Origin: Mobula hypostoma
Taxonomy: Eukaryota
Direction of reading: 5' to 3'
NCBI RefSeq assembly: GCF_963921235.1
Contig: NC_086097.1
Coordinates: 155,560,001 to 155,624,000, forward strand
Length of the DNA stretch: 64,000 nt
Of the stretch, positions 6,741 through 60,499 are shown one piece after another; position 1 is the first letter of the stretch, and each line of letters starts with the position of its first letter. Under the pieces are notes generated by a model that saw only the letters and a list, made by a program, of their open reading frames with translations, was not told the DNA's origin and searched no databases. Made by a program: the position numbers and the translations under genes.

Positions 6741-7084
6741 TGGGCAGTTTTGACAGTTTTGAAGTCCCATTTCTTTCAGCCTTTCCTCATAAAACACGCA
6801 TCCTAATCTGGGCAGCATCCTAGTAAATCTCTGCACCCTATCTGTATATCTTCATCTATTTTATGTGATACTTGTAGAACACAGAATCTCCCCCACCCCC
6901 CAGGGTGACCAATGCAGAGTGCCAGAGATCCTGGTCCAATCGTGACCACAGGTGCTGTTTGTGAAGGACTTGGATCTCAGGGATGAAGCGTTCACTCTGT
7001 TACTGTCCGCAAAGATGCTGCCTGATCCCCTGAGTATTTCTGGCATTTCCTGTTTTTATCTCAGGTTTCCAGCTTCTGCATTTT

Positions 7085-7435
7085 AATAAATCCCACCCCT
7101 CTTCCTCTATTCCTCACTCTGACCTTTTACTTCTTCTCACCTGCTTATTTCTTCCCCCTGGATCCAAGCATGCTTCCTCCCTTCCTCCTCTGGTCCACTC
7201 TCCTTTCCTATTGATGCTTTCTTCTCCAGCCCCTGACCTTTCCCAAACACCTGGCTTTACTTATCACCTTCCTGCTAGTCTTCTTCCCCTCCCTCCACCT
7301 TTTTATTTTGGCATCTTCTCCCTTCATTCTCAGTCCTGAAGAACAGCCTTGGGCCGAAATGTCAACTGTTTATTCATTTCCGCAGATGCTACCTGAATTG
7401 CTGAGTTCCTCCAGCAACTTGTGTGTGTTGCTTTG
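7085..7435 (+). mobile_element. Penelope pLTR-derived element with degenerate hammerhead motif
   Basis: Pyrimidine-rich body, then 'cagtcctgaagaacagccttgggccgaaatgtcaactg' and the pLTR tail; homologous to 42850-43225. Confidence 0.75.
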
Positions 7436-17441: not shown

Positions 17442-17859
17442 AAAGGTGGATGAATATATAAATATATTATTAATTATATGAGGGGGAAGAAAGGTTACAA
17501 TTTGAGGAATATTAGCTGGGAATAGTGACATTAATTTTTTTTATATATATATACAATTTTTTTGTTATGGGGGAGCTGGAAGAAATACTGACCAATCGCT
17601 ACGCTATTCATGTGTGCAAGCGTGGCAATAGCCATGACCTGCAAAATGGAGGGGGGTAGTGTTGTGTATCTTCTCATTCACAACATTAGTAGGGGGGTAT
17701 TTTGTTATTTCTCTTTTTGTATCACATCTATCTTTTATTTATTTCTTTTTGCCTGGATGATTGGGAGGGAAACACATAGCAACATGATGAAGTTCAAAGA
17801 GATTCCCCAAGGAACTATGAAAGTTGAGAAGCTAAGTAATGTTTTAGATTGGAGTAACT

Positions 17860-20770
17860 TTGTTAAGAATAATGACCAATTTATTGAATATTTTGAGTTT
17901 TAATGTTAATGGGCTTAATGGACCAGTGAAAAGAAAAAGAATCTTAACGCATATTAAGAAAATGAAGGTAGATTTAACCTTCTTACATGAAACGCATTTA
18001 ACAGAGACAGACCATCAGAAATTAAAGGGAGATTGGTTAGGTAGTGTTGTTGTAGCTTCATTTAATTCAAAAGTGAGGAGAGTAGCAATTTTGATTAATA
18101 AAATGTTACCAATTAGAATACAAAATGTGATAACCGATTCTACGGGGAGATATGTGATTATACGCTGCCAACTTTTTTCTGAATTATGGACTTCCATGAA
18201 TATTTATGCACCAAATGAAAATGATGCAAAATTCATACAAGAAGCTTTTTTGAATTTGGCTGATGCACATGAAAAAATGTTAATAGGAGGAGATTTTAAT
18301 TTTTGTCTAGACCCAGTCTTAGATAGATCAACTAAGGCTGTCACAAAATCGAAGGTAGTAAAACTAACTTTATCATTGATGAAAGATTTAAATTTCATTG
18401 ATATACGGAGAAGAATTAATCCTAAAGAAAGAGACTATTCGTTCTATTCTAATAGACACAAAACTTATTCAAGGATAGATCTTTTCCTATTATCAATGCA
18501 TATTCAACACAGAGTGAAAAATATGGAATATAATGCAAGAATATTGTCAGATCATTCTCCTCTATTAATGACAATAATAATGACTGGTAAGGAAGAAGTG
18601 GCTTATAGATGGAGATTTAATTCAACATTATTAAAACGTCAAGATTTTTGTGATTTTATGAAAAAGCAGATCCAATTTTTTTTTCGATACAAACTCTCAT
18701 TCAGTGGATGATAAATTTAAACTATGGGATGCGATGAAAGCATATTTGAGGGGTCAGATAATAAGTTATATGTCTAAAATTAAGAAAGAATATATGACAG
18801 AACTGGATCAATTGGAAAAAGAGATTACAAAATTAGAAAAAGAATCTCAAAGACATATGACAGAAGAAAAATAAAGACAACTTGTGAATAAGAAGTTACA
18901 ATATAATACACTTCAGTCATACAGAATGGAAAAAGCAATCATAAGAACTAAGCAAAGGTATTATGAGTTAGGTGAGAGAGCACATAAAATTCTTGCTTGG
19001 CAGTTGAAAACAGAACAAGCTTCCAAAACGATAAATGCAATTAGAACAAGTGCAAATAAAATTACCTATAAACCTTTAGAAATTAATGAAACCTTCAAAA
19101 GTTTCTATTTTGAATTATATCAATCAGAATCACAAAATGATGTTAATGAGATAGAAAGGTTCTTATAACCAGAATCATACAGGCCTATTTCTTTGTTGAA
19201 CACGGATTATAAAATAATAGCAAAAATTTTATTGAATAGATTATCTAAATATTTATCAAAATTAATACATATGGATCAAACAGGATTTATTAAAAATAGA
19301 CAATGGGCAGATAATGTAACTTGGCTCCTCAGTATAATTCATTTTGGCACAAAAAGGGGAGGAGATGAGTATAGTAGTAGCCTTGGATGCAGAAAAAGCA
19401 TTTGATAGATTGGAATGGGATTTTTTATTTAAAGTATTAGAAAAATATGGGTTAGGAACATCTTTTATAAACTGTATTAAAACTTTAAATACTAACCCTA
19501 ATGCTAAAGTAGTGACAAATACTCAAATTTCAACACCATTCCAGTTAAAAAGGTCAACTAGCCAAGGTTGTCCATTATCACCTGCTTTATTTGTACTGGC
19601 GATAGAGCCATTAGCAGAACTAATTAGAATTGATGCAGATATTATGGGTTTTAGAGTTAATCAGGAGGAATATAAAATTAATCTTTTTGTTGATGATGTT
19701 TTGATTTACTTAACAAACCCACAGCATTCATTACATAAACTATCTTCTAGATTGGATGAATATGGGAAAGTACCAGGGTACAAAATAAATTGGGATAAAA
19801 GTGAAATTTTACCTCTTACTAAAGGAGACTATAGCCAATGTCGATTAGCAACCGAATTTAGATGGCCGGTAAATGGCATAAACTATCTAGGTATAACACT
19901 TGATAATGATGTAAAGAATTTATATAAATTTAATTATTTACCACTATTGAAAAAAATTCAAGAAGATCTTGACAAATGGATGATATTACCAATAACATTA
20001 GTGGGTACAGTCAATGTTGTAAAAATGAATATATTTCCTAGATTACAGTATTTGTTTCAAACATTACCAATACAATTGCAACAAATTTTTTCAAGAGTTA
20101 AATAAATGTGTGAGAAAATTTCTTTGGAAAGGTAAAATGTCAAGAATATCATTGGAAAAATTGACATGTAAATTTGAGTTAGGAGGGTTACAACTTCCAA
20201 ACTTTAAGAATTATTATAAAGCAAATCAACTTTGATTTATTGCATCTTTTTTGATGATCGAAAACCGGCATGGATTAGAATAGAATTAGATAAGATAGGA
20301 GAAAATATACCTGAAGATTTTGTATATAAATGGGAATCTAAATGGATACGGAAAAAAGAAAGAATCTCCTATATTAAAACAATTGATTGATCTATGGAAT
20401 AAGATAAATGTTGATAATGAAATAAAGAAATCTTTCTAAGCAAGGAGACCTTTGTTCCAAAACAGACTTATTCCTTTTACAATGGATAATCAACTTTTAT
20501 ATAATTGGTACCAAAAAGGGATTAGATCTATAGGAGTCTGTTATGAACGAGGTATATTGATGTCATTTGAACAGCTAAAGAATAAATTTAAAATATCAAA
20601 TAACACTTTATTTTGTTACCTTCAATTAAGGGCTTACTTAAAAGGCAAACTGGGTCAAACAATGTTTTAGTCAAAACCCAATGAAATTGAGATTTTAATT
20701 CAAAAAGGAAAAATTAAAAAATTTATTTCTTGTATGTATAATTTGATTCAAAAACAGACAATTAAACAAA
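17860..20770 (+). pseudogene. L1 ORF2 pseudogene (APE endonuclease and RT)
   Basis: Colinear fragments 17860-18711, 18884-19168, 19193-19405, 19344-20105, 20452-20670; internal deletion near 19167. Confidence 0.9.
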
Positions 20771-21681: not shown

Positions 21682-21986
21682 GCTGTAATACTATTGAATG
21701 GTTGTCTTGCATGAAAAGATGGGACTAAACCTCAAATTCTACCTTGTCGTGGCATTCCACCTTATTGCTTGCCTGCATTGCCCGTTCACTGTAACTGTAA
21801 CAACTTAATTTGCATTCTGTTATTGCTTCTTCCCCATCTTCTTAAGTGATTGAATGATCTGTATGAATGACACATAAAACAAAGTTGTTTACTTTACCTT
21901 GGTAAATGTGACAATAATAAATCAATTTATCATAAAGTGTGAAGATTTTAAAATTGAGATTACACTACCAAAAGACAGAGGAAGAT

Positions 21987-22087
21987 AGAGTCCTGACGAA
22001 GGGTCTCGGCCCGAAACGTTGACTGCACCTCTTCCTGGAGATGCTGCCTGGCCTGCTGCATTCACCAGCAACTTTTATGTATGTTGT
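21987..22087 (+). mobile_element. 101-bp Penelope pLTR-derived insertion beginning at the hammerhead motif
   Basis: 9-bp direct repeat GAGGAAGAT at 21978-21986 and 22088-22096; body matches 31704-31792. Confidence 0.88.
21989..22024 (+). ncRNA. Minimal type I hammerhead ribozyme motif
   Basis: AGTC-CTGACGA-A-GGGT(CTCG)GCCC-GAAA-CG-TT-GACT: stem I AGTC/GACT, CUGANGA and GAAA core, 4-bp stem II, self-complementary ACGT in place of stem III, GUU cleavage triplet. Confidence 0.75.
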
Positions 22088-22110
22088 GAGGAAGATTAAG
22101 TTCTGATATA

Positions 22111-25531: not shown

Positions 25532-27971
25532 ACCTTCACAAGCCTTCCAGGGTCTGCTGCAGTGAAGTATCCCCACAGCATGATGCAGCCAGCACATTGT
25601 TCACAGTAGGGATGGTGTGTTTTTGATGGTATACAGTGTTTGGCTTACTCCAAACATAGTGTTTACTCTGATGGCCTAACAGCTCAATTTTGGTTTAACT
25701 GGATCGTAGTATATTCTTCCAGCTGAATTCAGAGTCTCCCATATGCCTTCTGGCAAACTCTAACCAAGATTTCATGTGAGTTTTTTTCCCCCCCAACAGT
25801 TGTTTTCTCTTTGCCACTCTTCCACAAAGCTGCAACTGATGAAGCAACCGGGCAACGGTTGTTGTACGTACAGTCTCTCCTATCTCAGCCAATGAAGCTT
25901 GTAACTCCACCAGAGCTGTCATAGGTCTTTTGGTGACCTCGCTCACTAATCCCCTTCTTGCACGGTCACTCAATTTTTGAGGACAGCCTGCTCTAGGCAG
26001 AATTACAGCTGTGCCATATTCTTCCCATTTCTTGATGATTGGCTTAACTGCATTCCAAGGGATATTCAGTGACTTGGAAACTTTCTTGTATCCATCTCCT
26101 GACTTGTGCTTTTCAATAACCTTTTTGTGGAGTTGCTTCAAGTGTTCTTTTGTCTTCATGCTATGTTTTTTGCCAGGATACTGACTCACCAGCAATTCGG
26201 GCTTCTTCTTCTTCTTCTTTTTTGTTTTATGGCGGCTGGCAACCTGTTTTCAGTGCATTACCGCCACCTGCTAGACTTCTTGTGTTCCAACCAAATATGT
26301 CCTGGAGTTCTCTACTTTAGACTATCTAGTTCAACCTGCATTTCTCTATTAGCATCACCCTGTAGTTGCAATTCCTCGTGAATGCTTAATGCACTCATTA
26401 GATAATGCCACAAACTGCTATTCTTCCCTAATTTTCGCAAGTTTTTGTGTAGTTGCATTACCTCAATTACATTGATTTCATCTACATCACCTATAAGACT
26501 AAAATCGTCTTGTTAAAGAATAGTAATTATTGCATGTTATACTTTTAAAATTGCTGTTTTTCCAAGTCTATCTGCTTTTCCAGGTTTTCCTTTTCTTGGA
26601 TCCTGCACCCTGTAGTTGTTTGCTGAGACCTCAGAGTTCTTCTTCATTTGCTTCCATGTTTTCATTTTATAATCTGAATGTAGACAATTCTCTTTGCAAC
26701 AAATTCCTTTTCCTTTTGTATCCTTGTAATAATTTCCTCCATTTTCCAATCTCTTTCCAACTCACTGTTGTTCTTGTCGGGTACTTCTATTTGTTGTTGG
26801 AGTTCTGCACATTTACCCTGGGCTTCAATCATAAAATCTGAGGATTTTCCTTAAGTTCTAAAACATTTCTTAAATTCTTGACTATTTGCAATAAATATTC
26901 TGCCATTAAGATTCCATCTCCCCTGCCTGTGAACTGTTGGATCCTCCATTCAGCGTTTCTTTGACTTCTTCCCACCTAATCCCTTTAATACCAAGATACT
27001 TTTAGGCAGACTTAACGATAATTTTAATTATCTCAGTTCTTCTGCTTGTTTGCGCCAAACAATTAATTGCATCTACCATAAAAAGCACAAAATCCTTTCT
27101 ACTCATTAATAGTGTATCCTTATTTTTCATATTACAGCTCTCACAATTCACCTGTTTATTATTCCCTGTATTTATTTGCTTGACAGCCTTTTTTTCATCA
27201 ACTTCTTTCACTGCCTCTGCATAACTGATTCCTTGAGTTACTTTTACATATGGTATCTCAGCCGCCTTCTTACTATAAATGCACCCTTGATAAGCTGCGC
27301 TGTGTTCCTCACCACAATTGCAGCATTTCAGCCTAGCGCCTGCCTCACAGTTCCCATATTCAGGTTCTCTAGTGCATCTTCCACATCTTTGTTTCCCTCT
27401 GCAGACCGCCGCAATGTGCCCGAAGTTATGACATTTATAGCATCTTAAAGGCGGTGGTATATATATTCTAACCGCATAACACATATACCCTAAATAAACG
27501 TTACTTGATATCCTCTCTCTCCACCATTTTCCAGTCACCATAGCAGTTCCAACTAACACCACCATCAGCCTCCCTGAGAGGAGAGGAGCCTTTCGGCAGG
27601 ATTAGCAATGATTAGGATTAGATACACGTGTATTTGTACTACAATCAATTGAAACACCTTGACTGCACACAGGTGATGTCCATTTAACTAATTATGTGAT
27701 TTCTAAAACCATTTGGCTACACCAGTGATGAGTTTGTGTCTCATATTAAAGGGAGGGGGGTGTGAATACTTACACAATCAGTTATTTTGTGTTTTATACT
27801 TGTAATTAATTTAGATACTTTATAGAGCTCTCTTTTCACTTTGACATGAGAGAGTTTTTCTGTTGATCAGTGTCAAAAACAAAAGCCAAATTAAATCCAC
27901 TGCAATTCAATGTTGTAAAACAACAAAACTTGAAAATTTCCAAGAGGGGTGAGTACATTTTATAGGTACTG
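25532..27971 (-). mobile_element. Tc1 (IR/DR family) partial copy, interrupted at ~26196-27618
   Basis: ORF 25695-26195: MKTKEH..HKSGDGYKKVSKSLNIP..GRVAKRK..LEFARRH; homologous to 54165-55176; TIR ends '...ttataggtactg' followed by TA. Confidence 0.92.
26200..27600 (-). mobile_element. Nimb/I-group LINE derivative: gag-like ORF1 zinc knuckles joined to the 3' end
   Basis: ORF 27002-27565 has three Cys/His knuckles (CYKCHNFGHIAAVC, CGRC..., CCNCGEEHSAAYQGC); minus-strand 3' end 'ggtggcggtaatgcac...ccgccataaaac' followed by a (GAA)n tail at 26203-26220. Confidence 0.75.
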
Positions 27972-28994: not shown

Positions 28995-29848
28995 CTATGT
29001 CTATGAAAGATAAAATGCAAAATGTAAATGGAGAAACAAGAGAAAATTTTCAAATGCTGGAAATCCAAGCAACACACACAAAATACTGGAAGAGCTCAGC
29101 AGGCCAGGCAGCATCTATGGGAAAGAGCTCAGTCGATGTTTCAGGCTGAGGCCCTTCAGCAGCAATGTAAATGGAGGCTTGCTTTGCTTTTGCTGCTTCT
29201 TTATCTGTCCATTAAGATTTGGTTTAACTGCCTCGTTACTGAGATCTATTTCTTTCTGTAATGCCTTCCAGTTGTTGCTGTATTTATTAACATTTTCATG
29301 TTTTCTACCATCATTCTCATCAGTTCCATAACTCCAGTTATTGTCCTTTAATATGACTGCACACTTGTAGACTTACCCTAATTTTCCTTCCATCCATCTT
29401 CCCTTGTGTGAATAACATTAATTAACAACCAGCATGTTATTGGAACATATGAAGTAACTGAGAACCTGGAAGAGACCTTCAAAAGCAGACAAGGCAAATG
29501 TAACGTGGCCTCTGTTGTAGTGAGGACTCAGCCCCAAGCTGCTGTGTGGCCTGCTTGCAGCTGCCCAGAGAGAGGCGTCAGAGTTGAATGCTCCAGTGGA
29601 GTGCTGGAGGTGGTGTGGCATGACGTAAATACTGTTATCAGTGCTGCCCCCACTGTTTGTTCAGCAGAAGTCAAGTTGTGTTGTGTTTGACTGCAACTGC
29701 TGCAACATTCACGGACTCTGGGACTTGGACTACGAATATTTTTTGGGCGCAAACATGAGGAAATCTGCAGATGCTGGAATTTCAAGCAACACACATAAAA
29801 ATTGTTGGTGAACGCAGCAGGCCAGGCAGCATCTCTAGGAAAAGGTAC

Positions 29849-29884
29849 AGTGGACATTTCGGGCCGAGACCCTTCGTCAGGACT
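29849..29884 (-). ncRNA. Hammerhead motif in the inverted pLTR (decayed 3' half)
   Basis: Minus strand reads AGTC-CTGACGA-A-GGGTCTCGGCCC-GAAA-TG-TC-CACT. Confidence 0.65.
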
Positions 29885-30163
29885 AACTGAAAGAAGAGCT
29901 AGTAAGAGATTTGAAAGTGGGAGGGGAGGAGGAGATCGAAAATGATAGGAGAAGACAGGAGGGGGAGGGATTGAGCCAGGAGCTGGAAAGTTGATTGGCG
30001 AAAGGGATATGAGTGGATCATGGGACAGGAGGCCTAGGAAGAAAGAAAAGGGGGAGGGGGGGAAAAACCAGAGGATGGGCAAGGGGTATAGTGAGGGGGA
30101 CAGAGGGAGAAAAAGGAGAGAGAGAAAAAGAATGTGTGTATATAAATAAATAACAGATAGGGT

Positions 30164-31405
30164 ACTCTGCTCCGTCTAGCGGAATTAGTCCTTACTCTTA
30201 ATAATTTCTCCTTTGGCTCCTCCCATTTCCTCCAAACTAAAGGTGTAGCTATGGGCACCCGTATGGGTCCTAGCTATGCCTGCCTTTTTGTTGGCTTTGT
30301 GGAACAATCTACGTTCCACCCCTATTCTGGTATCTGTCCCCCACTTTTCCTTCGCTACATCGACGATTGCATTGGCGCTGCTTCCTGCACGCATGCTGAG
30401 CTCATTGACTTCATTAACTTTGTCTCCAACTTTCACCCTGCCCTCAAGTTTACCTGGTCCATTTCTGACACCTCCCTCCCCCTTTTAGATCTTTCTGTCT
30501 CTGTCTCTGGAGACAGCTTATCTACTGATGTCTACTATAAGCCTACTGACTCTCACAGCTATCTGGACTATTCCTCTTCTCACCCTGTCTCTTGCAAAAA
30601 TGCCATTCCCTTCTCGCAATTCCTCCGTCTCCACTGCATCTGCTCTCAGGATGAAGCATTTCATTCCAGGATGAAGGAGATGTCCTCCTTTTTTAAAGAA
30701 AGGGGCCTTTCCTCCACCATTAATTCTGTTCTCAAACACATCTCCCCCATTTCACGCACATCTGCTCTCACTCCATCCTCCCACCACCCCACTAGGAATA
30801 GGGTTCCCCTTGTCCTCACCTACCACCCCACCAGCCTCCAGGTCCAACATATAATTCTCCGTAACTTCCGCCACCTCCAACGGGATCCCACCACTGAGCA
30901 CATTTCCCCTCCCCCCCACCGCTTTCCGCAGGGATCGCTCTCTACGCGACTCCCTTGTCCATTCATCCTCCCCATCCCTCCCCATCGATCTCCCTCCTGG
31001 CACTTATCCTTGTAAACGGAACAAGTGCTACACATGCCCTTACACTTCCTCTCTCACTACCATTCAGGGCCCCAGACAGTCCTTCCAGGTGAGGCGACAC
31101 TTCACCTGTGAGTCGGCTGGGGTGATATACTGCATCCGGTGCTCCCGATGCGACCTTCTATATATTGGCGAGACCCGACGCAGACTGGGAGATCGTTTCG
31201 CTGAACACCTACGCTCTGTCCACCAGAGAAAGCAGGATCTCCCGGCGGCCACACATTTTAATTTCATGTCCCATTCCCATTCTGACATGTCTATCCACGG
31301 CCTCCTCTACTGTAAAGATGAAGCTACACTCAGGTTGGAGGAACACCTTACATTTCGTCTGGGTAGCCTCCAACCTGATGGCATGAACACTGGCTTCTCA
31401 AACTT
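30164..31405 (+). pseudogene. Penelope RT and GIY-YIG endonuclease coding remnant (frameshifted)
   Basis: ORFs 30251-31015 and 31089-31793 carry the RT palm/thumb and GIY-YIG motifs; frameshift around the C-run near 30910. Confidence 0.9.
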
Positions 31406-31703
31406 CCCACCTCCCCCTCGTACCCCATCCGTTATTTATTTATATACACACACATTCTTTTTCTCTCCCTCCTTTTTCTCCCTCTGTCCCCCTCACTATA
31501 CCCCTTTGCCATCCTCTGGGCTTTCTCCCTCTCCCCCTTTTCTTTCTCCCTATGCCTGCTTTCCCATGATCCTCTCATATCCCCTTTGCCAATCACCTGT
31601 CCAGCTCTTGACTCCATCCCTCCCCATCCTGTCTTCTCCTATCATTTTGGATCTCCCCCTCCCTCTCTCACTTTCAAATCTCTTACTAGCTCTTCTTTCA
31701 GTT

Positions 31704-31739
31704 AGTCCTGACGAAGGATCTCGGCCCGAAACGTCGACT
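31704..31739 (+). ncRNA. Minimal hammerhead ribozyme motif in the Penelope pLTR
   Basis: AGTC-CTGACGA(31708-31714)-A-GGATCTCGGCCC-GAAA(31728-31731)-CG-TC-GACT; GUC triplet; one stem II mismatch. Confidence 0.75.
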
Positions 31740-32263
31740 GTACCTCTTCCTAGAGATGCTGCCTGGCCTGCTGCATTCACGAACAACTTTTAAATATATT
31801 TTGGGTGAGTGCTTCACAGCTATATTATGTGCACTTGCTATCTTATATGTGCTATATGTGCCTTGTGTTGTGTGCGACTGTTGATACTGTGTTTTGCACC
31901 TTGGCCTTAGAGTAACACTGTTTCATTTGGCTGCATTAGTATTCATGTCTGGCTGAATGGCTATTACACCTGAACTTGAACTTGAACTCAAACAATACCC
32001 AAAGTCAGGATAGAACTGCGTTACGGGATCTGCGTGACAGCAGTATTAACTGCTGCCCCACTGTGCTGTTTCTTTCAGATTTTACAACAGAAACGGGAGA
32101 TCATTATGGCTCTATGACTCAAGGATATGCAATATCAATCTGTCTCTGGAATATGTGCTTCCATAGGAGACATTAAAGAGCTTTAAAATCCAGGTGGACA
32201 GGAAGAATGAGCAGTATAAGGAGATGCACATAAAATATACTTACTTTGAAAAAGGATCTAGAG

Positions 32264-34385: not shown

Positions 34386-35439
34386 CACTCTTCTCAGAAA
34401 TGGCTCTGGCTAAATACTTCCCTGACTACACATACAAAATTCTGGAGGAATTCAGCAGGTCAGGCAGCGTCTATGGAGAGAATAAACAATCAGTGTTTCA
34501 GCTGAGACTCTTCATTGGGACTCCAGCATTTTGTTTGTGTTGCTCTGGATTTCCAGCATCTGTAGAATCTTTTGTGTTTATGATTTCCATGGCAAATCAT
34601 CTACTGCATGTTAGAGAGATTTTTGGGTTTAGGACCTGTACATTTAGTAATTGACTTTGGCTACCAGTCTTCACACCTGAAATTGTATTGTGGATTTAAT
34701 TTGGCGGGCAACTCTGAACAAAGGGTTCCTGCAAGCTGTGACTCCCAGACCAGACAATGAATTGTCTTTTGATGTTTGGCACAGAAAATATTGAGCCCCA
34801 TGCTGGGCCAGCGAGACCTTTCAATGAAAGCGTCTCCACATGATGCCTGGGGTACCTTGTCTTGTCACATAAAGAAGCTGCTTTGTATCTGATAGAACTT
34901 TTCGCCAGTGACTTCATTCTTGCAAAAAACACTGCATTGTTCCAATTCTGAGAGATGAGATGTCAGTCTGATAGCAGGAGAGAAGAGGTCAGTTCATTCA
35001 TGGAAGAAGTCAGTTTAGTGTGACAGCAGGAGAGGAGGCACCAGTCAGATCACGGTGGAGGAAAGATCAGTCTGATCATAGAAGAAAAGAGGTAAATTAG
35101 ATTGTAAGAGAGAAGAAGTTAATCTAACAATGAAATAGGAAAATTCTGTCCAAGGGCAGGTCAGCCTGACAGCAGGATGTGTGTCAGACAGACAGTGGTG
35201 AAAAGTACCATACAACAACTGGATTTTGGTTTGTGGGAAATATGAAGTCTAAGGTCACGTGTTAAGCCAACTTCATTCTGGCCTGATTCCCTGAAAGTTA
35301 CCAATTTGTACAGTGCATGCAAGTTACATGGTGTAATTTGCTCTTCCAAGAAAATCAATCTATACATTACATTCTATAGTAAATATATGCTGCATGTCAA
35401 AATAGTGGACTGATATTGCATAGATGAGTAATTAGGCCA

Positions 35440-39351: not shown

Positions 39352-40410
39352 TATATAACCATATAATAATTACAGCACGGAAACAGGCCATCTCGGCCCT
39401 TCTTGTCCGTGCCGAACTCTTACTCTCACCTAGTCCCACCGACCTGCACTCAGCCCATAACCCTCCATTCCTTTCCTGTCCATATATCTATCCAATTTAA
39501 CTTTAAACAACAACATTGAACCTGCCTCAACCACTTCTGCTGGAAGCTCGTTCCACACAGCTACTACTCTCTGACTAAAGAAGTTCCCCCTCATGTTACC
39601 CCTAAACTTTTGCTCTTTAACTCTCAACTCATGTCCTGTCCTCTTGTTTGAATCTCCCCCACTCTCAATGGAAAAAGTCTATCCACATCAACTCTATCAA
39701 TCCCCCTCATAATTTTAAACACCTCTATCGAGTCCCCCCTCAACCTTCTACGCTCCAAAGAATAAAGACCTAACTTGTTCAACCTTTCTCTGTAACTTAG
39801 GAGATGAAACCCAGGCAACATTTTAGTAAATCTCCTCTGTACTCTCTCCATTTTATGGACATCTTTCTGATAATTCGGTGACCAGAACTGTACACAATAC
39901 TCTAAATTTGGCCTTACCAATGCCTTATACAATTTCAACATTACATCCCAACTCCTATACTCAATGTTCTGATTAAAAAAGGCCAGCATAGCAAAAGCAT
40001 CCTTCACCACCCTATCCACATGAGATTCCACCTTCAGGGAACTATGCACCATTATTCCTAGATCCCTCTGCTCTACTGCATTCTTCAATGCCCTACCATT
40101 TACCATGTATGTCCTATTTTGATTAGTCCTACCAAAATGTAGCACCTCACATTTTTCAGCATTAAATTCCATCTGCCATCTTTCAGCCCACTCTTCTAAC
40201 TGGCCTAAATCTCTCTGCAAGCTTTGAAAACCTACTTCATTATCCACAACGCCACCTATCTTAGTATCATCTGCATACTTACTAATCCAATTTACCACCC
40301 CATCATCCAGATTATTAATATATATGACAAACAACATTGGACCCAGTACAGATCCCTGAGGCACACCACAAGTCACCGTCCTCCAATCTGACACACAGTT
40401 ATCCACCACT
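39352..40410 (-). mobile_element. Young 5'-truncated CR1 LINE
   Basis: ORF 39624-40409: GVPQGSVLGPMLF, KYADDTK, LEYCVQFWSP; one frameshift to 39430-39627; tail repeat 'ataaccatataa'. Confidence 0.95.
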
Positions 40411-41389
40411 GTGACAGCATATGAGGCGAATCTTAGCTGTAGGATGGTGAGTGACTGGAAGGCACTAAGAAAATGACTGAAGCTGAGTCACTAACAGCAT
40501 TTAAGAAGTGTCTAGATGTGTATCTGAACCGAGTCTGGAAGAAGAAGGGTGATCACTGGTTAGCACGAGCAATTACAATTGATTTGCATGTTTCCATACT
40601 GTACGAGTCCATGATTCTCTGACTTCAGTCTTGAAAATCTAACATTCAATCATAAGTAAAAGGCTGCAAGGGATCCTGAGGTGTATATATATTATTACAA
40701 TGACTTTCTCATCTCAACAGAAACTGCTGAGGGTGGTATTTAGTGTAGTGGAATCACTAATGGGATCTAGTGTAGATGTATTTTTATGTATGATCTACTG
40801 TCCAATGAGAAGGCAGAAGGACCTGTCTGCATGATGACGGAAACAATGAAGCAGCAGCTGTTGGACGAAGTATCCAGATGGCCCAGAGTTCTTGGCCTAT
40901 ATTGTTTCGTCCTTTGCACAGAGCTATCCTTCATTCCACCACGGTATTCCACGGCTGAGATATTATGAATTGCCATCTGTACACATGTTACTGAGTTTGA
41001 TTCTACATAGTCTATTCGTTTCTAATTACTCTTTATCTCAGAGACAGGGCTGTCCTTTATATAGCTGGACTAAGGAAGACCATGAAAGGAAAGGAGAAGA
41101 ACCAGATGATGTGGTATAATTCACATGATTAGAAGAGGCTGCTACCACATATTTTCAGGAGCCATAGAGAGTTTGTGGAAGCACTAGGAGATGGGACCGG
41201 CAAGGTGAAGATTGGCATCAGAGTTTCATATATGTAGATAGTTTTGTGTATGCATATGATACACAAAGTGAAGGTAATTGAGAACATAAGGTACAAGACA
41301 AACATACAGTTGAATTACAAATGTTTCCTGTGACACAGCCAAAACTGAACCAATGATAAGACAAATGAGATTCAGAAAGACAAGTCTAT

Positions 41390-43810
41390 TGAAATTCCTT
41401 TAGAAAATAACAGGCAGGATAGACGAAGGAGAGTCAGTAGATATTGTCTTCTTGGATTTTCAGAAGGCCCTTGACAAGGTGCTGCACATGAGGCTGCTAA
41501 ACAAGATAAGATAAGAGCTCATGGTATTACAAGAAAGATACTAGCATGGATAGAAGATTGGCTGACTGGCAGGAGGTAAAAAAATGGGAATAAATAGGGC
41601 TTTTTCTGATCGGCTGCCTGTGCCTAGCAGCGTTCCACAGTGGGACTGCTTCTTTTCACGTTACATGTCAAAGAATTGGATGATAGAATTGTGGCCAAGT
41701 TTGGAGGCGATACAAAGGTAGGTTGAGAGGTAGGCAGAGTTGAGGAACATAGAAGAGAGAACATGGGAGTCTACAGTAGAATAAAGGCCCTTTGGCCCAG
41801 ATGTTGTGCCAACCATGTAACCTACTCTAGAAACTGCCTATACACTCCCTACCATATAGACTTCTATTTTTCTAAGCTCCATGTCCCTATCTAAGGGTCT
41901 CTTAAAAGATCCTTTTGTATCTGCCTCTACCACTGTCACTGGCAGTGCATTCTATGCACCCACAACTCTCTGTGTGTAAAACTCACCTCTGAAGTAGGGA
42001 AATGCAGAAGGACTTGGACAGATTGTGGGAATGGACCAAGAAATAGTAGATGGAATACAGTGTAGGAAAGTGTATGATCATGCACTTTGTTAAAAGGAAT
42101 AAAGACAGGGACATTTCCTCAATGGGCAGCAAATGCAGAAATCAGGGGTGCAAGGGGACTTGGGATTCTTAGTGTAGGATTCCCTAAAGGTTAACATGCA
42201 GACTGAATCCATAGTAAGGGAGGCAAGTGCAATGTTAGCATTCATTTTGAGAGGGCCAGATTATAAAAGAAACCATGTAGTGCTGAGATTTTTAAGGCAT
42301 TGATAATAGCACACTTGAAATATTGTGAGTAGTTTTGAGCTGCTTATCAAAGACCAATCAGTTCCCCTCCACCACCACTCTCCTCTGTCTAGTGGAACTT
42401 GTCCTCACTCTTAATAATTTCTCCTTTGTCTCCTCCTATATCCTTCAAACAGAAGGTGTAGCCATGGGTACTTGCATGCGACACCTGCCCCTGCACCTCC
42501 TACGCCACTACCCAAACAGTCCTTGCAGGTGAGGTGACACTTCACCTGTGAGTCTTTTGGGGTCATATACTGTGTCTAGTACTCCTAGTGTGGCCTCCTG
42601 TATATCAGTGAGACCCGACGTAGATTGGGAGACTACTTCGCTGAGTACTTACACTCTGTCTGCCAGAAGAAGTGGGACCTTCCTATGGCCACCTATTTTA
42701 ATTCCACTTCCTATTCCCATTCCAATATGTCAATCCATGGCCTCTACTGTCATGATGAGGCACACTCAGGTTGAAAGAACAACATCGCCCGGGTAGCCTC
42801 CAACCTGATGGCTTGAACATCGATTTCTTGAACTTCCAGTATTGCACCGCCACCCCTCCTTCACCATTCCCCATCCCCTTTCCCTCTCTCACCTTATCTG
42901 CTTGCCTGCCCGTCAGCTTTCTCTGGTGCTTTTCCCCCACTTTGCTTTCTTCCATGGCCTGATGTCCTCTCCTATTAGGTTCCCCCTTCTCCAGCCCTGT
43001 ATATCTTTTATCAATCAACTTCCCAGCTCTTTACTTCATCCCTCCCCCACCCTCCTGGTTTCACATATCACCTCGTGTTTCTCTCTCCCCTCTCCCACCT
43101 TTTAAATACTCATCATCTTTTTTTTCTCCATTCCTGCCAAAGGGTTTTGAACCAGAGTGTTGACTGCACTTTTTTCCATAAATATTGCCTGGCCTTCTGA
43201 GCTTCTCCAGCATTTTGTATGTATTTCTAAGAAAGGAAGTTCTGGGATTTGAAAGGGTCAAAGAAGGTTCATGAGAATGATTCTGGGAATGAAACGGTTG
43301 ATGGAATTCATTGTCATAGGTGTCTGTAAAGGCCAGGGCATAAGGTGCATTTAAAGTGAAGGCTGATAGATTATTGACTAGTCAGAGTGTGAAAGGTTAC
43401 AGGAAGAAGGCAGGAGAATGGAGTTGAGAGGGAAAATGAATTAGACATGATGAAATGGTGGAGCAGACTCGATTGGCTGAATGGCCTAATTCAGTTCTTA
43501 TTTCTTACAGTCTTATGGTCTAATACAAGAACAGCCCTTTTGAAAAGAGATGAGTTGAATTTCTTTAGCCGGAGGGTGGCAAATCTCTTGTATTCATTGC
43601 CATAGACAGCTATGTAGGTCAAGTCATTGGGTATATTTAAAGCGGTGGTTGATAGGTTGTTAATTAGAAAGGGTGTTGAAGGTTATGGGAGCATGCAGAA
43701 GTATGGGGTTGTCGGCTATAATAAATCAGACATAATGGAATGGCGGGGCACAGCTGTTGAGCCAAATGGCTGATTTCTACTCCCATGTCTTATGTTTTTA
43801 TGGTCTTATG
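41390..43810 (+). mobile_element. Old CR1 RT/3' fragments interrupted by a minus-strand CR1 tail (~41750-41990) and a Penelope copy
   Basis: 'ttggattttcagaaggcccttgacaaggtg' (LDFQKAxDKV), 'gccaagtttggaggcgatacaaag', two CR1 3' UTRs at ~43300-43520 and ~43540-43810. Confidence 0.8.
42350..43225 (+). mobile_element. Older, internally deleted Penelope copy
   Basis: LVELVLTLNNFSF..GVAMGT joined directly to the GIY-YIG region homologous to 31075-31405, then a pLTR. Confidence 0.88.
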
Positions 43811-44619
43811 AGTGGATGACACAACTTTCAGGAAAGTTGATACAGCAGAAATGAGGACATGTAGGTAGGATACTTCAAAGATGACTAATGCTCCTTTGCT
43901 TTTGAGGAAATCTCCTAGGCAAAGTGACCAAAAGATAGAGTTGTATTTTTGGAATTTTATATACAATTATTTATCGTATTGTATCACTTTTTATGTGCAA
44001 ATAGTAATGAGTCTGAATAGCTTAATTTGTTTTTCTGAAAAGAAAGCAGTGTTAGAATACAAATACCCTTAAGAAATGAATATATTAAATGCCATGATTT
44101 TGATACATTCTTATGCAGAATAATCCCTGCAAACATAACTGATTTATTGCTAAAGAAAGGAAAATTGGAGAACTAGAGGCTAATTATTTCAGATCTGTTA
44201 TTGAAGAAATTTTAGAAGCCATCATTAAAGACATAGCAGGCAATAAGAAAATAGATTACAGTTTTCAAGCAACATCAGTGTGGTTTGTGGAAGGGAGATC
44301 ACATCTTGATCAATTTTGAATCAGTATCAGAATCAAGTTTATCATCATAGACAACTGTCATGACACTTGTTGTTTTGTGTAAGTAGTACAGTGAAACATA
44401 AACAATTCCCGTATAAAAATAAAGAGTGCAAAGGAGGAATAGCGAGGTGGTGTTTGTGGGTTCACAGACCATTCAGAAATCTGATGACAGAGGAGAAAAG
44501 GTTGTTCTTAAAATGTTGCATGTGGATCTTCAAGTTCTTGTGCATCCTCCCAGATAATAGTAATGATAAGCGGGCATGTCCCGGATGGTGAGGGTCCTTA
44601 TGTATATATCTACCTCTCT

Positions 44620-45530
44620 ATCTACCTATTTATTTATTTGTCACGTGTATATTGAAACATTGAAATATACAGTGAAATGTGTCACTTTGCATTCAACAAC
44701 AAATACAGTCCAAGGATATGCTGGGGCAGCCTGCAAGTGTCGTCACACTTCCAGTGCTAATATAACATGCCTACAACTCACTAACCCTAACCATGCTAAT
44801 ATAACATGCCTACAACTCACTAACCCTAACCATGCTAATATAACATGCCTACAACTCACTAACCCTAACCATGCTAATATAACATGCCTACAACTCACTA
44901 ACCCTAACCATGCTAATATAACATGCCTACAACTCACTAACCCTAACCATGCTAATATAACATGCCTACAACTCACTAACCCTAACCATGCTAATATAAC
45001 ATGCCTACAACTCACTAACCCTAACCATGCTAATATAACATGCCTACAACTCACTAACCCTAACCATGCTAATATAACATGCCTACAACTCACTAACCCT
45101 AACCATGCTAATATAACATGCCTACAACTCACTAACCCTAACCATGCTAATATAACATGCCTACAACTCACTAACCCTAACCATGCTAATATAACATGCC
45201 TACAACTCACTAACCCTAACCATGCTAATATAACATGCCTACAACTCACTAACCCTAACCATGCTAATATAACATGCCTACAACTCACTAACCCTAACCA
45301 TGCTAATATAACATGCCTACAACTCACTAACCCTAACCATGCTAATATAACATGCCTACAACTCACTAACCCTAACCATTTGTGTTTGGAAGGTGGGAGG
45401 AAACCCACAAAGTCACAGGGGCGGGGGGAAGTACAAACACCTTACTGCAGACAGCAGTGGGAATTAAACCCTGATTGATGAGCACCGGCACTGTAAAGCA
45501 ATGTGCTAACTGCAATGCCGCCTATGCTAT
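44620..45530 (-). mobile_element. V-SINE-like element carrying an internal minisatellite expansion
   Basis: Flanks of the array align with uninterrupted copies at 56705-57042 and, in reverse, 22824-23090. Confidence 0.8.
44755..45378. repeat. Perfect minisatellite, 16 x 39 bp (TGCTAATATAACATGCCTACAACTCACTAACCCTAACCA)
   Basis: 624 bp = 16 x 39; no unit variation seen; ANITCLQLTNPNH repeats in the ORF track. Confidence 0.97.
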
Positions 45531-52979: not shown

Positions 52980-55350
52980 CTCACACTCCCCTCTACATTG
53001 GCAGTACAGCAGTGGAAACTGCGAGTAGTTTTAAAATCCTGGGAGTGCACACCTCACACAAATTCTCATAGTCCAAGAGCACATCTTACACAGTCAAGAA
53101 AGCTCACCAATGCCTCTACTTTCTGAGGAGGCTGAAGAGAGCTGGTCTGTGCATATCCATACTCACGTCACTTTACTGATGTGCAGTAGAGAGGATCCTA
53201 ACAAGCCGCATCACTTCTTTTTATAGAAACTACACTGTGATGGACAGCAAGTCTCTACAACCGGTAATCAAAACTGTTTAGTGCATCACTGCCACGAGCC
53301 TACCTGCCATGAAGGACACACATGCTCAAAGATGCTGGAAAAGGGACAGTAATATCATGAAGGATCTCAACCTCCCTCCTCATGGACTGTTTGAACCACT
53401 TACATCATGGAGGAGGCTACTTGGCATCCATGCCAAGACCATCAGAATTAAAGACAATTGCTTTCCCCAAGCAGCAAGGCTGATTAACACCTCCACCCAC
53501 TAACTTCACCACTACCTTATTATTTCATATCAGGCACTTTATGGACATGAAATCAATCTAAGTATAGTGCCTATAAAAAGTATTCACCTCCTTGGAAGTT
53601 TTCATCTTAAACTGTTTTACAACATTGAATCACATTGAATATACTTTGGCTTTTTTTGACACTGATGAACAATTTCATGTCAAAATGAAAACAGATGCCT
53701 ACAAAATGATCTAAATTAATTACACATATAAAACATAAAATAATTGATTGCATAAGTATTCACCCCCTTCAAGTCAGTATTTAGTAGATGTACTTTTGGC
53801 AGCAATTACAGCCTTGAGTCTGTGTGAATAGGTTTACATCAGCTTTGCACACCTGGACACTGCAATTTTTTTCCATTTTTCTTTACAAAACGGCTCAAGT
53901 TCTGTTGGATTGCATGGGGATCATGAGTGAACAGCCCTTTTCAAGTCCAGCCACAAGTTCTCAGTTGGATTGAGATCTGGACTCTGAGTTGTACACTTCA
54001 GGACATTAACTTTGTTGTTTTTAAGCCATTCCTGTTTAGCTTTGGCTTTATGCTTGGGGTTATTGGCTTGATGGAAAACAACTCTTCCCTCAAGTCGCAG
54101 TCCTCTTGCAGACGGCATCAGAATTTCCTCCAGGATTTCCCTGCCTTCATTTTACCCTCTACCTTCATAAGCCTTCCAGGGCCTGCTGCAGTGAAGCATC
54201 CCCACAGCATGATGCAGCCACCACCACGCTTCACAGAAGGGATGTGTGTTTTTGATGGTGCACAGTGTTTGGCTTACTCCAAACATAATGTTTATTCTGA
54301 TGGCCTAAAAGCTCAATTTTGGTTTCATCAGACCATAGAACCTTCTTCCAGCTGACTTTAGAGTCTCTCACATGCCTTCTGGCAAACTCTAGCTGAGATT
54401 TGATGTGAGTTTTTTTCAACAGCGGTTTTCTCTTTGCCACTCTCCCATAAAGCTGCGACTGGTGAAGCACCCGGGCAACAATTGTTATATGTATTGTCCC
54501 TCCTATCTCATCCACTGAAGCTTGTAACTCCTCTGGAGTTGTTATAGGTCTCTTGGTGGCCTCCCTCACTAGTCCCCTTCTTGCACGATCACTCAGTTTT
54601 TGAGGACAGACTGCTCTAGGCAGATTTACATTTGTGCCATATTGTTTCCATTACTTGATGATTAACTTAACTGTACTCCAAGGGATTTTCAGTGACTTGG
54701 AAATTTTCTTGTATCCATCTCCTGATGTGTTCTTTTCAAACGACCTTTTCACAAGTTGCTTGGAGTGTTCTTTTCTCTTCGTGGTGTATTTTTGCCAGGA
54801 TACTGACTCACCAGCAGTTGAACCTTCCAGATACAGGTATATTTTTACTACAATCAATTGAAACACTGTGACTGCACACAAGTGATCTCTATTTAAATAA
54901 TTATGCGAATTCTAAAACCAATTGGCTGCACAAGCGATGATTTGGTGTGTCATATTAAAGGGGGATGAATACTTATGCAATCAATTATTTTTTTGTTTTA
55001 TATTTGTAATGAACTTAGATCAGTTTGTAGAGATCTGTTTTCACTTTGACACGAAAGAGTCTTTTTCTGTTGATCAGTGCCAAAAAAAGTCAAATTTGGT
55101 CCACCATGATTCAATGCTGTAAAACAATAAAATGTGAAAACTTCCTGAGGGAGATGAATTCTTTTTAAAGGCACTATATATGAGCTATCTTATGTATTTA
55201 TATTTATTGTGCTTTTTATTATTGTGCATTTTATTATTGTGTTCTTTATGCTTTGCGGGTTTTTTTGTGTTGCATCAAATCCAGAATAACGTTTATTTCG
55301 TTCTCCTTTGCGCTTAGTACAGGAAATGACATTGAACAATCTTGAATTTT
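52980..55350 (+). mobile_element. Rex1/Babar-like LINE 3' part split by the Tc1 insertion
   Basis: 'tttaaaatcctgggagtgcac' (FKxLGVH), 'aagaaagctcaccaatgcctctactttctgaggaggctg' (KKAHQxLYFLRRL), CFPQAARLIN; the 3' UTR resumes after 55178. Confidence 0.8.
53565..55176 (-). mobile_element. Full-length Tc1/mariner transposon with long IR/DR-type TIRs; transposase pseudogene
   Basis: TA on both sides (53563-53564, 55177-55178); termini 'tagtgcctataaaaagtattcac' and 'gaattctttttaaaggcacta'; inner repeats 'aagtattcacccc' (~53755) and 'gggatgaatactt' (~54962); motifs GDGYKKISK, VLWSDETKIEL, FHQANNPKH, QSPDLNPTENLW. Confidence 0.95.
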
Positions 55351-59726: not shown

Positions 59727-60499
59727 CAAGTGAAAATGATTTCTTCAATTGCATGACATGGAAGGATAAATTAATCACTCCTGTGCTGTCAACAATTAGC
59801 CACGATAAAAGAGAATGTGTTAGAAAATTAGAGCCTGTGTACTGATCACAAACAAGAGAAAATGTGCAGATGCTGGAAATCCAGAACAACACACACAAAC
59901 TATAGATACTGTCTGTCCTGCTGTGTTCCTCCAGCATTTTGTGTGTGTAAAAATATGCTGTATTTACCAAATAAATGCATAAATCATTACTGTACCTTGA
60001 TAGCTGCAGCAATTTTGATTCTTTTCTCCATGGACATGAAGGGTACAACTGCACTCCCACTTGCGGAATTTGGAAAAAACTGACTAATGACTACAAAAGT
60101 TGCAGATACAACCTCACAAGCACTGACAATGGAATGGCAGCATGCAACTTAAAGACAGATGTGAGTAATGACATTAACCCAGGATAGTGCCTCATTACTA
60201 TGCAAAGCTGTTGTACTTAAAGGGGCAATATTTTTTGTGATGGGGAAGAAGATGTCATTAATTCTTGGGTCCTAATTTATATGCATTTCCTGATGGATAA
60301 AGAAAATGGAAAAGGTTCTCATCTGCGGTTAAATCAGACTAGAATAAGGACAGAGGGGTTGCAAAATAAGATTCAAAAGTGGATTTGGAAGGAGCAGAAT
60401 TCAATAAAGATTGATAAGGAAATTGACAGTAATGGAGAAAATGTATTATGGTTAAAATGGAATGATAATCAGAATTAGGTTTATTTTCACTGAGATGTG

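What the first reader, a model, noticed from the sequence alone, without database searches (positions are those of the whole stretch)
21978..22096. 101-bp TSD-flanked mobile unit starting at an intact minimal hammerhead ribozyme
Seen: a 101-bp insert between 9-bp direct repeats (GAGGAAGAT) that begins 2 nt before stem I of AGTC-CTGACGA-A-GGGTCTCGGCCC-GAAA-CGTT-GACT and otherwise contains only the pLTR tail. Established: Penelope-like elements carry minimal type I hammerheads with a palindromic stub for stem III, proposed to cleave as dimers. Inference: this may be a minimal non-autonomous ribozyme-bearing retroelement mobilised in trans by the Penelope RT/GIY-YIG, rather than a random truncation.
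Basis: partly seen in the sequence, partly recalled or inferred. Interest (0 to 1): 0.72.

Follow-up and report, generated by a model that had tools for sequence, protein, structure and literature searches.

The report
Stub of a Penelope-like retrotransposon
This 101-base insert is a shortened copy of the end of a Penelope-like jumping gene that carries the element's known small ribozyme motif as a passenger; it is mostly ordinary, though such stubs may tend to start at the ribozyme's first base.

Summary
In detail: a 101-bp insert (21987-22087) lies between exact 9-bp repeats and carries a minimal hammerhead motif. It is the 3' end (pLTR) of an RT/GIY-YIG Penelope-like element (PLE) of a cartilaginous fish. 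A truncated parent-type copy lies at 30161-31790, 93% identical over the shared stretch. The insert's 3' end matches the family's tail-less end, which fits internal RT priming as published for PAc. Its 5' end lies 34 nt upstream of the predicted cut, so self-cleavage did not make it. The two extra bases are not pLTR sequence, and position 17 is U where three sister copies have C. There is no tandem, no clear Pol III promoter and no separate lineage, so a non-autonomous family is not supported. One lead remains: 6 of 13 window copies begin within about -3 to +9 of stem I (index excluded: p about 0.06 strict, 3e-4 loose). Contigs of related genomes show no depth step there, so the peak is unresolved. 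If real, it may mark the 5' end of the element's RNA. The scan noted this family many times elsewhere in this genome (unchecked notes).

The parts
21978..21986 (+). Left copy of 9-bp target-site duplication
21987..21988 (+). Two extra bases (AG) absent from the parent pLTR, which has TT; untemplated addition, AG stutter, cap copy or exon remnant (not resolved)
21989..22024 (+). Minimal type I hammerhead motif (stem I 4 bp, CUGACGA core, bulged A, stem II 4 bp, GAAA, ACGU palindrome, U17); predicted cut between 22020 and 22021
   Evidence: architecture as in PMC4209133
22025..22087 (+). Rest of the pLTR, ending at the family's tail-less 3' end (last base T where two sister copies have C)
22088..22096 (+). 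Right copy of 9-bp target-site duplication
30161..31790 (+). 5'-truncated, frameshifted PLE of the same subfamily (RT C-terminal part, Cys-rich linker, GIY-YIG, pLTR with hammerhead motif at 31704); nearest window relative, 93.1% over the shared stretch
   Evidence: (PF01541, E 4.8e-5)
29746..30165 (-). Inverted pLTR with tail, head-to-head with the ORF-bearing copy; hammerhead motif from 29884; reference for the contig test
15361..15670 (+). Same-subfamily pLTR copy starting about 180 nt upstream of stem I, with tail; core mutated
29034..29163 (-). Second short stub, other subfamily: 130 bp with tail, 13-bp TSD, starts about 4 nt into stem I/core
34428..34522 (-). Third stub, other subfamily: starts at stem I, joined to an inverted tail piece

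Best explanation
The insert is a pLTR-only stub of a very abundant EN+ Penelope-like retrotransposon (Cys-rich linker, so probably Neptune/Nematis type) of a cartilaginous fish, made from the element's own uncut RNA. Steps. (1) Shown: the sequence is the family's pLTR 3' module and is bounded by a TSD. (2) Inferred from PAc biochemistry: the RT/GIY-YIG protein nicked AT-rich DNA and primed reverse transcription inside the RNA at the proximal of two fixed sites, which gives the tail-less 3' end. (3) Inferred: cDNA synthesis ran through the hammerhead, so the template had not been cleaved, and stopped at the first base of stem I; two extra bases were added and the staggered nick left 9 bp duplicated. 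(4) The ribozyme motif is a passenger that has since decayed (C17U). Whether the stop at stem I is incidental truncation or a preferred RNA boundary is open, at about even odds.
For: Parent-type copy with RT and GIY-YIG in the window; protein relatives are shark and ray PLE-type ORFs at 64-74% identity. Insert is 93.1/89.8/86.7% identical to the three long sister copies. Window copies end at two places: near +98 or, with tail, near +135. Contigs of four runs put the main 3' junctions at 29748-29750 (about +136; 170-207 contigs per position in X1, AT-rich flanks), and X18 also shows 29785 (+100). This matches the two RT start sites and the optional 30-40 bp tail of PAc, where uncut RNA is the main substrate and HHR mutants insert normally (PMC11167929). 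5' ends of the 13 window copies range from within the ORF to +45. 8-10 bp TSDs and solo pLTRs are described for PLEs (PMC3846280). Summed contig depth falls smoothly across stem I in the two closest DNA runs (ratios 0.85, 0.82, 0.69, 0.59 in X1), so many copies run on upstream.
Against: 6 of 13 window copies start within about 12 nt at stem I, which plain random truncation predicts poorly. A strand-switch joint at exactly 29884 appears in 3 of 4 runs (one contig each), and 4 of the 30 joint ends shown lie at 29882-29884. The extra AG is unexplained. The mechanism is carried over from a Poseidon-clade element; the 3' ends here lie in GT-rich sequence, whereas PAc primes in an AC-rich stem loop. 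No empty site was seen, and no tree was built for the clade.
Confidence: 0.85

Rival explanations
1. One reading: a minimal non-autonomous element with its own transcript, mobilised in trans by the PLE protein, SINE-like.
For: TSD directly at the unit. Several copies start near stem I. The unit keeps the RT priming region. pLTR sequences suffice for trans mobilisation in Adineta (PMC3846280), and non-autonomous PLE derivatives are described (PMC8557442; bioRxiv 10.64898/2026.07.22.740005).
Against: The other five stem-I-starting copies are only 55-70% identical to the index, which is closer to long copies (87-93%). No second copy with the same ends in the window. No tRNA head and no A box on the unit's strand. 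No 29882-29884 loose end among the 24 rows shown (1095 hidden).
Confidence: 0.08
2. A retrozyme monomer: the unit was cut out by dimeric hammerhead cleavage, circularised and reinserted.
For: Min-HHR with ACGU palindrome. Retrozymes derive from pLTRs and have dispersed monomers. One X11 contig shows a 38-nt tandem repeat of the hammerhead region.
Against: A cleavage-derived unit should begin after H17 or be circularly permuted; this one is colinear with the pLTR, starts 34 nt before the cut and ends at the family's usual 3' end. No tandem here. Min-HHR monomers showed no cleavage (PMC4209133), and 8 of 9 Xenopus dimers tested were inactive.
Confidence: 0.04
3. A longer insertion later lost its upstream part by deletion, or the 9-bp repeat is chance.
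For: The upstream tract is pyrimidine-rich and deletion-prone (skips). Seven bases of the repeat are complementary to an internal stretch at 22031-22037.
Against: Both repeat copies lie within 2 nt of the homology ends; chance rate 0.04-0.08% at 2-3 nt slop.
Confidence: 0.03

Closest known systems
5'-truncated / solo-pLTR insertions of EN+ PLEs with optional tail; PAc internal RT initiation (PMC11167929, parts 1-2 of 4 read; PMC3846280 and PMC8557442, passages)
   Same: pLTR-only insert, TSD of about 9 bp, two fixed 3' ends about 36 nt apart, AT-rich flanks, inverted pLTR on the parent-type copy, insert made from uncut RNA.
   Different: Very short and starts exactly at stem I. I saw no report of a preferred 5' end there in what I read. 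PAc is Poseidon clade; this family has a Cys-rich linker.
Minimal type I hammerheads (min-HHR) of metazoan PLEs (Cervera and de la Pena 2014, PMC4209133, parts 1-2 of 4 read)
   Same: Core boxes, extra nucleotide before stem II, G10.1-C11.1 pair, palindromic stub in place of helix III, mostly single dispersed motifs attributed to truncated PLEs.
   Different: Stem II is 4 bp (7-8 bp in the S. mansoni families). U at position 17. Activity not tested.
Non-LTR retrozymes (PMC7229834, passages; bioRxiv 10.64898/2026.07.22.740005, parts 1-3 of 5)
   Same: Non-coding, pLTR-derived, type I HHR, dispersed monomers, TSD longer than 4 bp.
   Different: No tandem array, ends not at the cleavage site, minimal rather than canonical HHR, no circular RNA evidence.
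D. virilis Penelope pLTR promoter and 5' UTR intron (PMC2377424, passages; PMC4209133)
   Same: There the intron's 3' end maps to the 5' end of helix I. Here long copies have a pyrimidine tract running up to stem I, whose AG could be a splice acceptor and whose A fits YYANWYY.
   Different: No transcript start or splice was shown for this family.

Membership tests
EN+ PLE (insertion derived from) | Homology to the pLTR of an element with RT and C-terminal GIY-YIG | tested here: met
   93.1% to the pLTR at 31704; GIY-YIG PF01541 E 4.8e-5; RT-bearing relatives. The RT fragment itself had no Pfam hit.
EN+ PLE (insertion derived from) | Fixed 3' ends with optional 30-40 bp tail | tested here: met
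   Ends near +98 to +100 and +135 to +137.
EN+ PLE (insertion derived from) | Short TSD | tested here: met
   9 bp exact; empty site not tested.
Neptune/Nematis clade | Zn-finger-like motif between RT and EN; RT phylogeny | tested here: inconclusive
   Cys-rich linker seen in the ORF at 30855; criterion from PMC8557442; no tree built.
min-HHR | CUGANGA, GAAA, stems I and II, palindromic stub, NUH | tested here: met
   NUH is GUU here, GUC in the 31704 copy. No Rfam model matches.
min-HHR | Self-cleavage as dimer or with protein help | not testable with these tools
   Folding alone disfavours the open monomer fold (probability 0.01).
Non-LTR retrozyme | At least two tandem HHR-bearing units | tested here: not met
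   No tandem at the locus.
Non-LTR retrozyme | Unit ends set by cleavage; circular RNA | tested here: not met
   5' end 34 nt upstream of the cut, colinear with the pLTR. Circular RNA itself could not be tested.
SINE-like non-autonomous family | Own lineage of copies with shared ends and shared derived bases | tested here: not met
   Window only: stem-I-starting copies are 55-70% identical to the index. Genome-wide test not possible.
SINE-like non-autonomous family | Internal promoter or tRNA-derived head | tested here: inconclusive
   No tRNA; no A box on the unit's strand, one 1-mismatch B-box-like hit across the junction (consensus motifs recalled). A Pol II start cannot be excluded.

The most novel reading that the evidence does not exclude
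Stem I's first base is a defined RNA boundary: the PLE mRNA start (YYANWYY initiator-like in 6 of 6 long copies, which are homologous and so not independent) or a splice junction after the pyrimidine tract. Because PLE RT primes internally, and a full-length RNA carries the priming sites near its 5' end as well, priming there would copy only the first 100 or 135 nt and run off the RNA end. That would yield a recurrent class of TSD-bounded, ribozyme-only stubs, made anew by each subfamily. Their 5' ends would be a genomic fossil map of the PLE transcript start and evidence that PLEs insert from uncut RNA in vivo.
Probability: 0.35. Interest if true: 0.55.

Novelty: new member of a known kind. 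Interest (0 to 1): 0.28.

Why it matters
As a single copy it adds little: min-HHRs in PLE ends, single dispersed motifs and pLTR-derived non-autonomous sequences are all published. It does show an insert copied straight through the cleavage site, in line with the in vitro finding that PLEs use uncut RNA. If a 5'-end peak at stem I holds genome-wide, it would give a cheap way to map PLE transcript starts or splice junctions. It would also help explain why genomes hold so many solitary min-HHRs, and it would bear on what the PLE ribozyme is for.

Tried and rejected
No whole genome is held, so the breakpoint histogram could not be made. Pattern scans found 0 loci in viral contigs, metagenome contigs and prokaryote genomes. 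Rfam gave no hammerhead hit. No RNA holder was listed for the locus and all 24 runs were contigs; this is no evidence on expression. In one search, 4 of the 24 runs were laid on a 300-bp pLTR copy, not on the index locus. Depth there is no copy number and dips where the reference has private changes; only 24 loose ends were shown, with 1095 hidden; the table of common ends was empty. So it neither shows nor excludes a moderate peak. Depth in the guessed-RNA run X18 halves across stem I (0.55) but also in each next bin (0.51, 0.54, 0.63), and depth is a poor measure, so I do not use it. Contigs of X18 also cross stem I. Two of the four joint ends at 29882-29884 are skips that may come from another subfamily's different upstream sequence; with 2 of 30, p is 0.05. 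Gene-model test of the splice acceptor: one hit (P0121, a Mobula gene model starting inside the pLTR) and no candidate in the other frame, so uninformative. No host gene was found: 100 ORFs were scanned against Pfam and hits were transposon families only. The initiator match is weak: 268 of 2155 A's after pyrimidine-rich 20-mers match by background. Lunse et al. 2017 is not held; I know it only from a review's passage and reference list. The sequence look-up of earlier findings returned nothing.

Full report
Observation. The coordinates are right. An exact 9-bp repeat (21978-21986, 22088-22096) frames 101 nt. Such a repeat around a 101-bp interval occurs at 27, 53 or 633 of 63,650 positions with 2, 3 or 5 nt of slop; these counts include this locus. 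The hammerhead motif runs 21989-22024, with the predicted cut after 22020. The AG before stem I is not pLTR sequence (sister copies have TT). Position 17 is U against C in 3 of 3 sister copies; GUU remains a listed NUH triplet (PMC3138052, 3 passages). The open monomer fold has probability 0.01, the whole insert folds like shuffled sequence (z 0.54), and Rfam has no match.

What it is. The insert is the 3' module of a Penelope-like element. A 5'-truncated, frameshifted copy with RT C-terminal part, Cys-rich linker and GIY-YIG lies at 30161-31790, head-to-head with an inverted pLTR at 29746-30165. That is the arrangement described in PMC8557442 (12 passages). Its closest named protein relatives are from rays and sharks (64-74%), so the host is a cartilaginous fish, probably a ray. 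The index copy is 93.1, 89.8 and 86.7% identical to the three long copies of its subfamily. In one search, 71,091, 48,370, 24,505 and 4,554 contigs from four coded runs lay on a 300-bp pLTR copy, so the family is very abundant. No host gene was detected among 100 ORFs scanned.

The 3' end. Window copies stop near +98 (counting from the first base of stem I) or carry about 36 nt more. The best-supported loose ends lie at 29748-29750 (+135 to +137) with long AT-rich flanks, and X18 also shows 29785 (+100). PMC11167929 (parts 1-2 of 4; supplements searched and file 1 read, with nothing bearing on this) shows that PAc primes reverse transcription at two internal sites that bracket this optional tail. 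It also shows that uncut RNA is the main substrate, that HHR mutants insert normally, and that 5' truncation of the template shortens the product. The index copy ends at the proximal site.

The 5' end. The insert starts 34 nt, and stem I 32 nt, upstream of the cut. Self-cleavage therefore cannot have made this end, and the template was uncut. A profile search found 13 clear copies of the module in the window (seven weaker hits at E above 2 were dropped). Six keep the upstream pyrimidine tract (75-85% pyrimidine in 40 nt), one starts at +45, and six lack the tract (30-53%) and start within about -3 to +9. Three of these six are firm: the index, 29163 (13-bp TSD) and 34522 (inversion junction). 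Three are soft: 47636 (an 8-bp repeat plus 22 unexplained bases), and 33042 and 6962 (old copies whose parental upstream sequence is unknown). Among copies starting between -60 and +50, and leaving out the index, 2 of 4 (strict, p 0.06) or 5 of 7 (loose, p 3e-4) fall in a 12-nt window that was chosen after seeing the data. In favour of a peak: a strand-switch joint at exactly 29884 in 3 of 4 runs, and 4 of 30 displayed joint ends at 29882-29884, two of them possibly artefacts. Against a dominant peak: no depth step at stem I in the two closest DNA runs (0.85 and 0.84, then 0.82, about 0.69, about 0.58), no stem I row among 24 loose ends shown, an empty table of common ends, and only 1 of 4 copies of the index subfamily starting there. 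These contig measures are crude, so the question stays open.

Mechanism. Best reading (0.85): a stub made by the PLE protein from the element's own uncut RNA, with the ribozyme as a passenger. A separate non-autonomous family (0.08) predicts shared ends and shared derived bases; instead the other stem-I-starting copies are only 55-70% identical to the index (the 33042 copy was not in that identity table, so the range covers four of the five), and there is no tRNA head or clear Pol III promoter. A retrozyme origin (0.04) fails on tandem structure and on the position of the ends (PMC7229834, 12 passages; bioRxiv 10.64898/2026.07.22.740005, parts 1-3 of 5).

The lead worth keeping. In all six long copies the first A of stem I sits in a YYANWYY context (recalled initiator consensus; background 12%; copies not independent) at the end of a pyrimidine tract, which also reads as a splice acceptor. 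[quoted passage not shown] If the RNA begins or is spliced at stem I, internal priming near the RNA's 5' end would give 100-nt and 135-nt stubs again and again. This is inference. The gene-model test was uninformative. I give it 0.35.

What is known. Min-HHRs in pLTRs, mostly as single motifs attributed to truncated PLEs, are in PMC4209133. TSDs of 8-10 bp, solo pLTRs and trans mobilisation are in PMC3846280 (12 passages). pLTR-derived non-autonomous retrozymes, with one chondrichthyan sampled, are in the 2026 preprint. A preferred 5' end at stem I did not appear in the listings of searches or in the texts I read; the library lacks most subscription papers, Lunse et al. 2017 was not held (known through PMC6765202, 6 passages), and the preprint's supplements were not seen. 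Earlier notes of this scan describe the same family many times in this genome and in two others. One notes a 63-bp stub starting at the cut site, which would mean 5' ends vary. These notes are unchecked and are not counted as support.

Verdict. Real, correctly located, and a new member of a known kind. Interest 0.28.

Noticed in passing
window 44755-45379: Tandem array of a 39-bp unit, 16 copies, 100% matches, containing telomere-like CCCTAA letters; it accounts for the long ORFs at 44570-45478.
   Followed up: no
window 29034-29163 (-), TSD 29021-29033 and 29164-29176: A second TSD-bounded stub (13-bp TSD, 130 bp, with tail) of another subfamily, starting at the hammerhead core.
   Followed up: yes
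window 34428-34580 and 59849-59948: Small fold-back insertions: an inverted tail piece joined to a forward stub. The first turns at stem I, the second at about +45.
   Followed up: partly
window 42377-43224: PLE copy of another subfamily with a large internal deletion that joins the RT C-terminal region to the GIY-YIG region.
   Followed up: no
window 6962-7430: An old pLTR copy directly followed by a longer pLTR copy, a possible partial tandem.
   Followed up: partly
run X11, laid on window 29845-29882: One contig shows a 38-nt step back covering the hammerhead, a possible minimal tandem ribozyme dimer in a related species.
   Followed up: no
protein P0121 versus window 29747-29884 (-): A Mobula birostris coenzyme A synthase gene model begins with a peptide 85% identical to this pLTR's translation, a possible pLTR-initiated chimeric transcript or an annotation artefact.
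   Followed up: partly
window 21980-21985 and 22031-22037: Part of the target duplication is complementary to an internal stretch of the insert and pairs with it in the fold; chance or target-RNA annealing.
   Followed up: no
window 17848-20105, 39624-40487, 25695-26249, 54234-54911: LINE remnants with AP endonuclease and/or RT domains, and Tc1/Sleeping Beauty-type transposase remnants.
   Followed up: no
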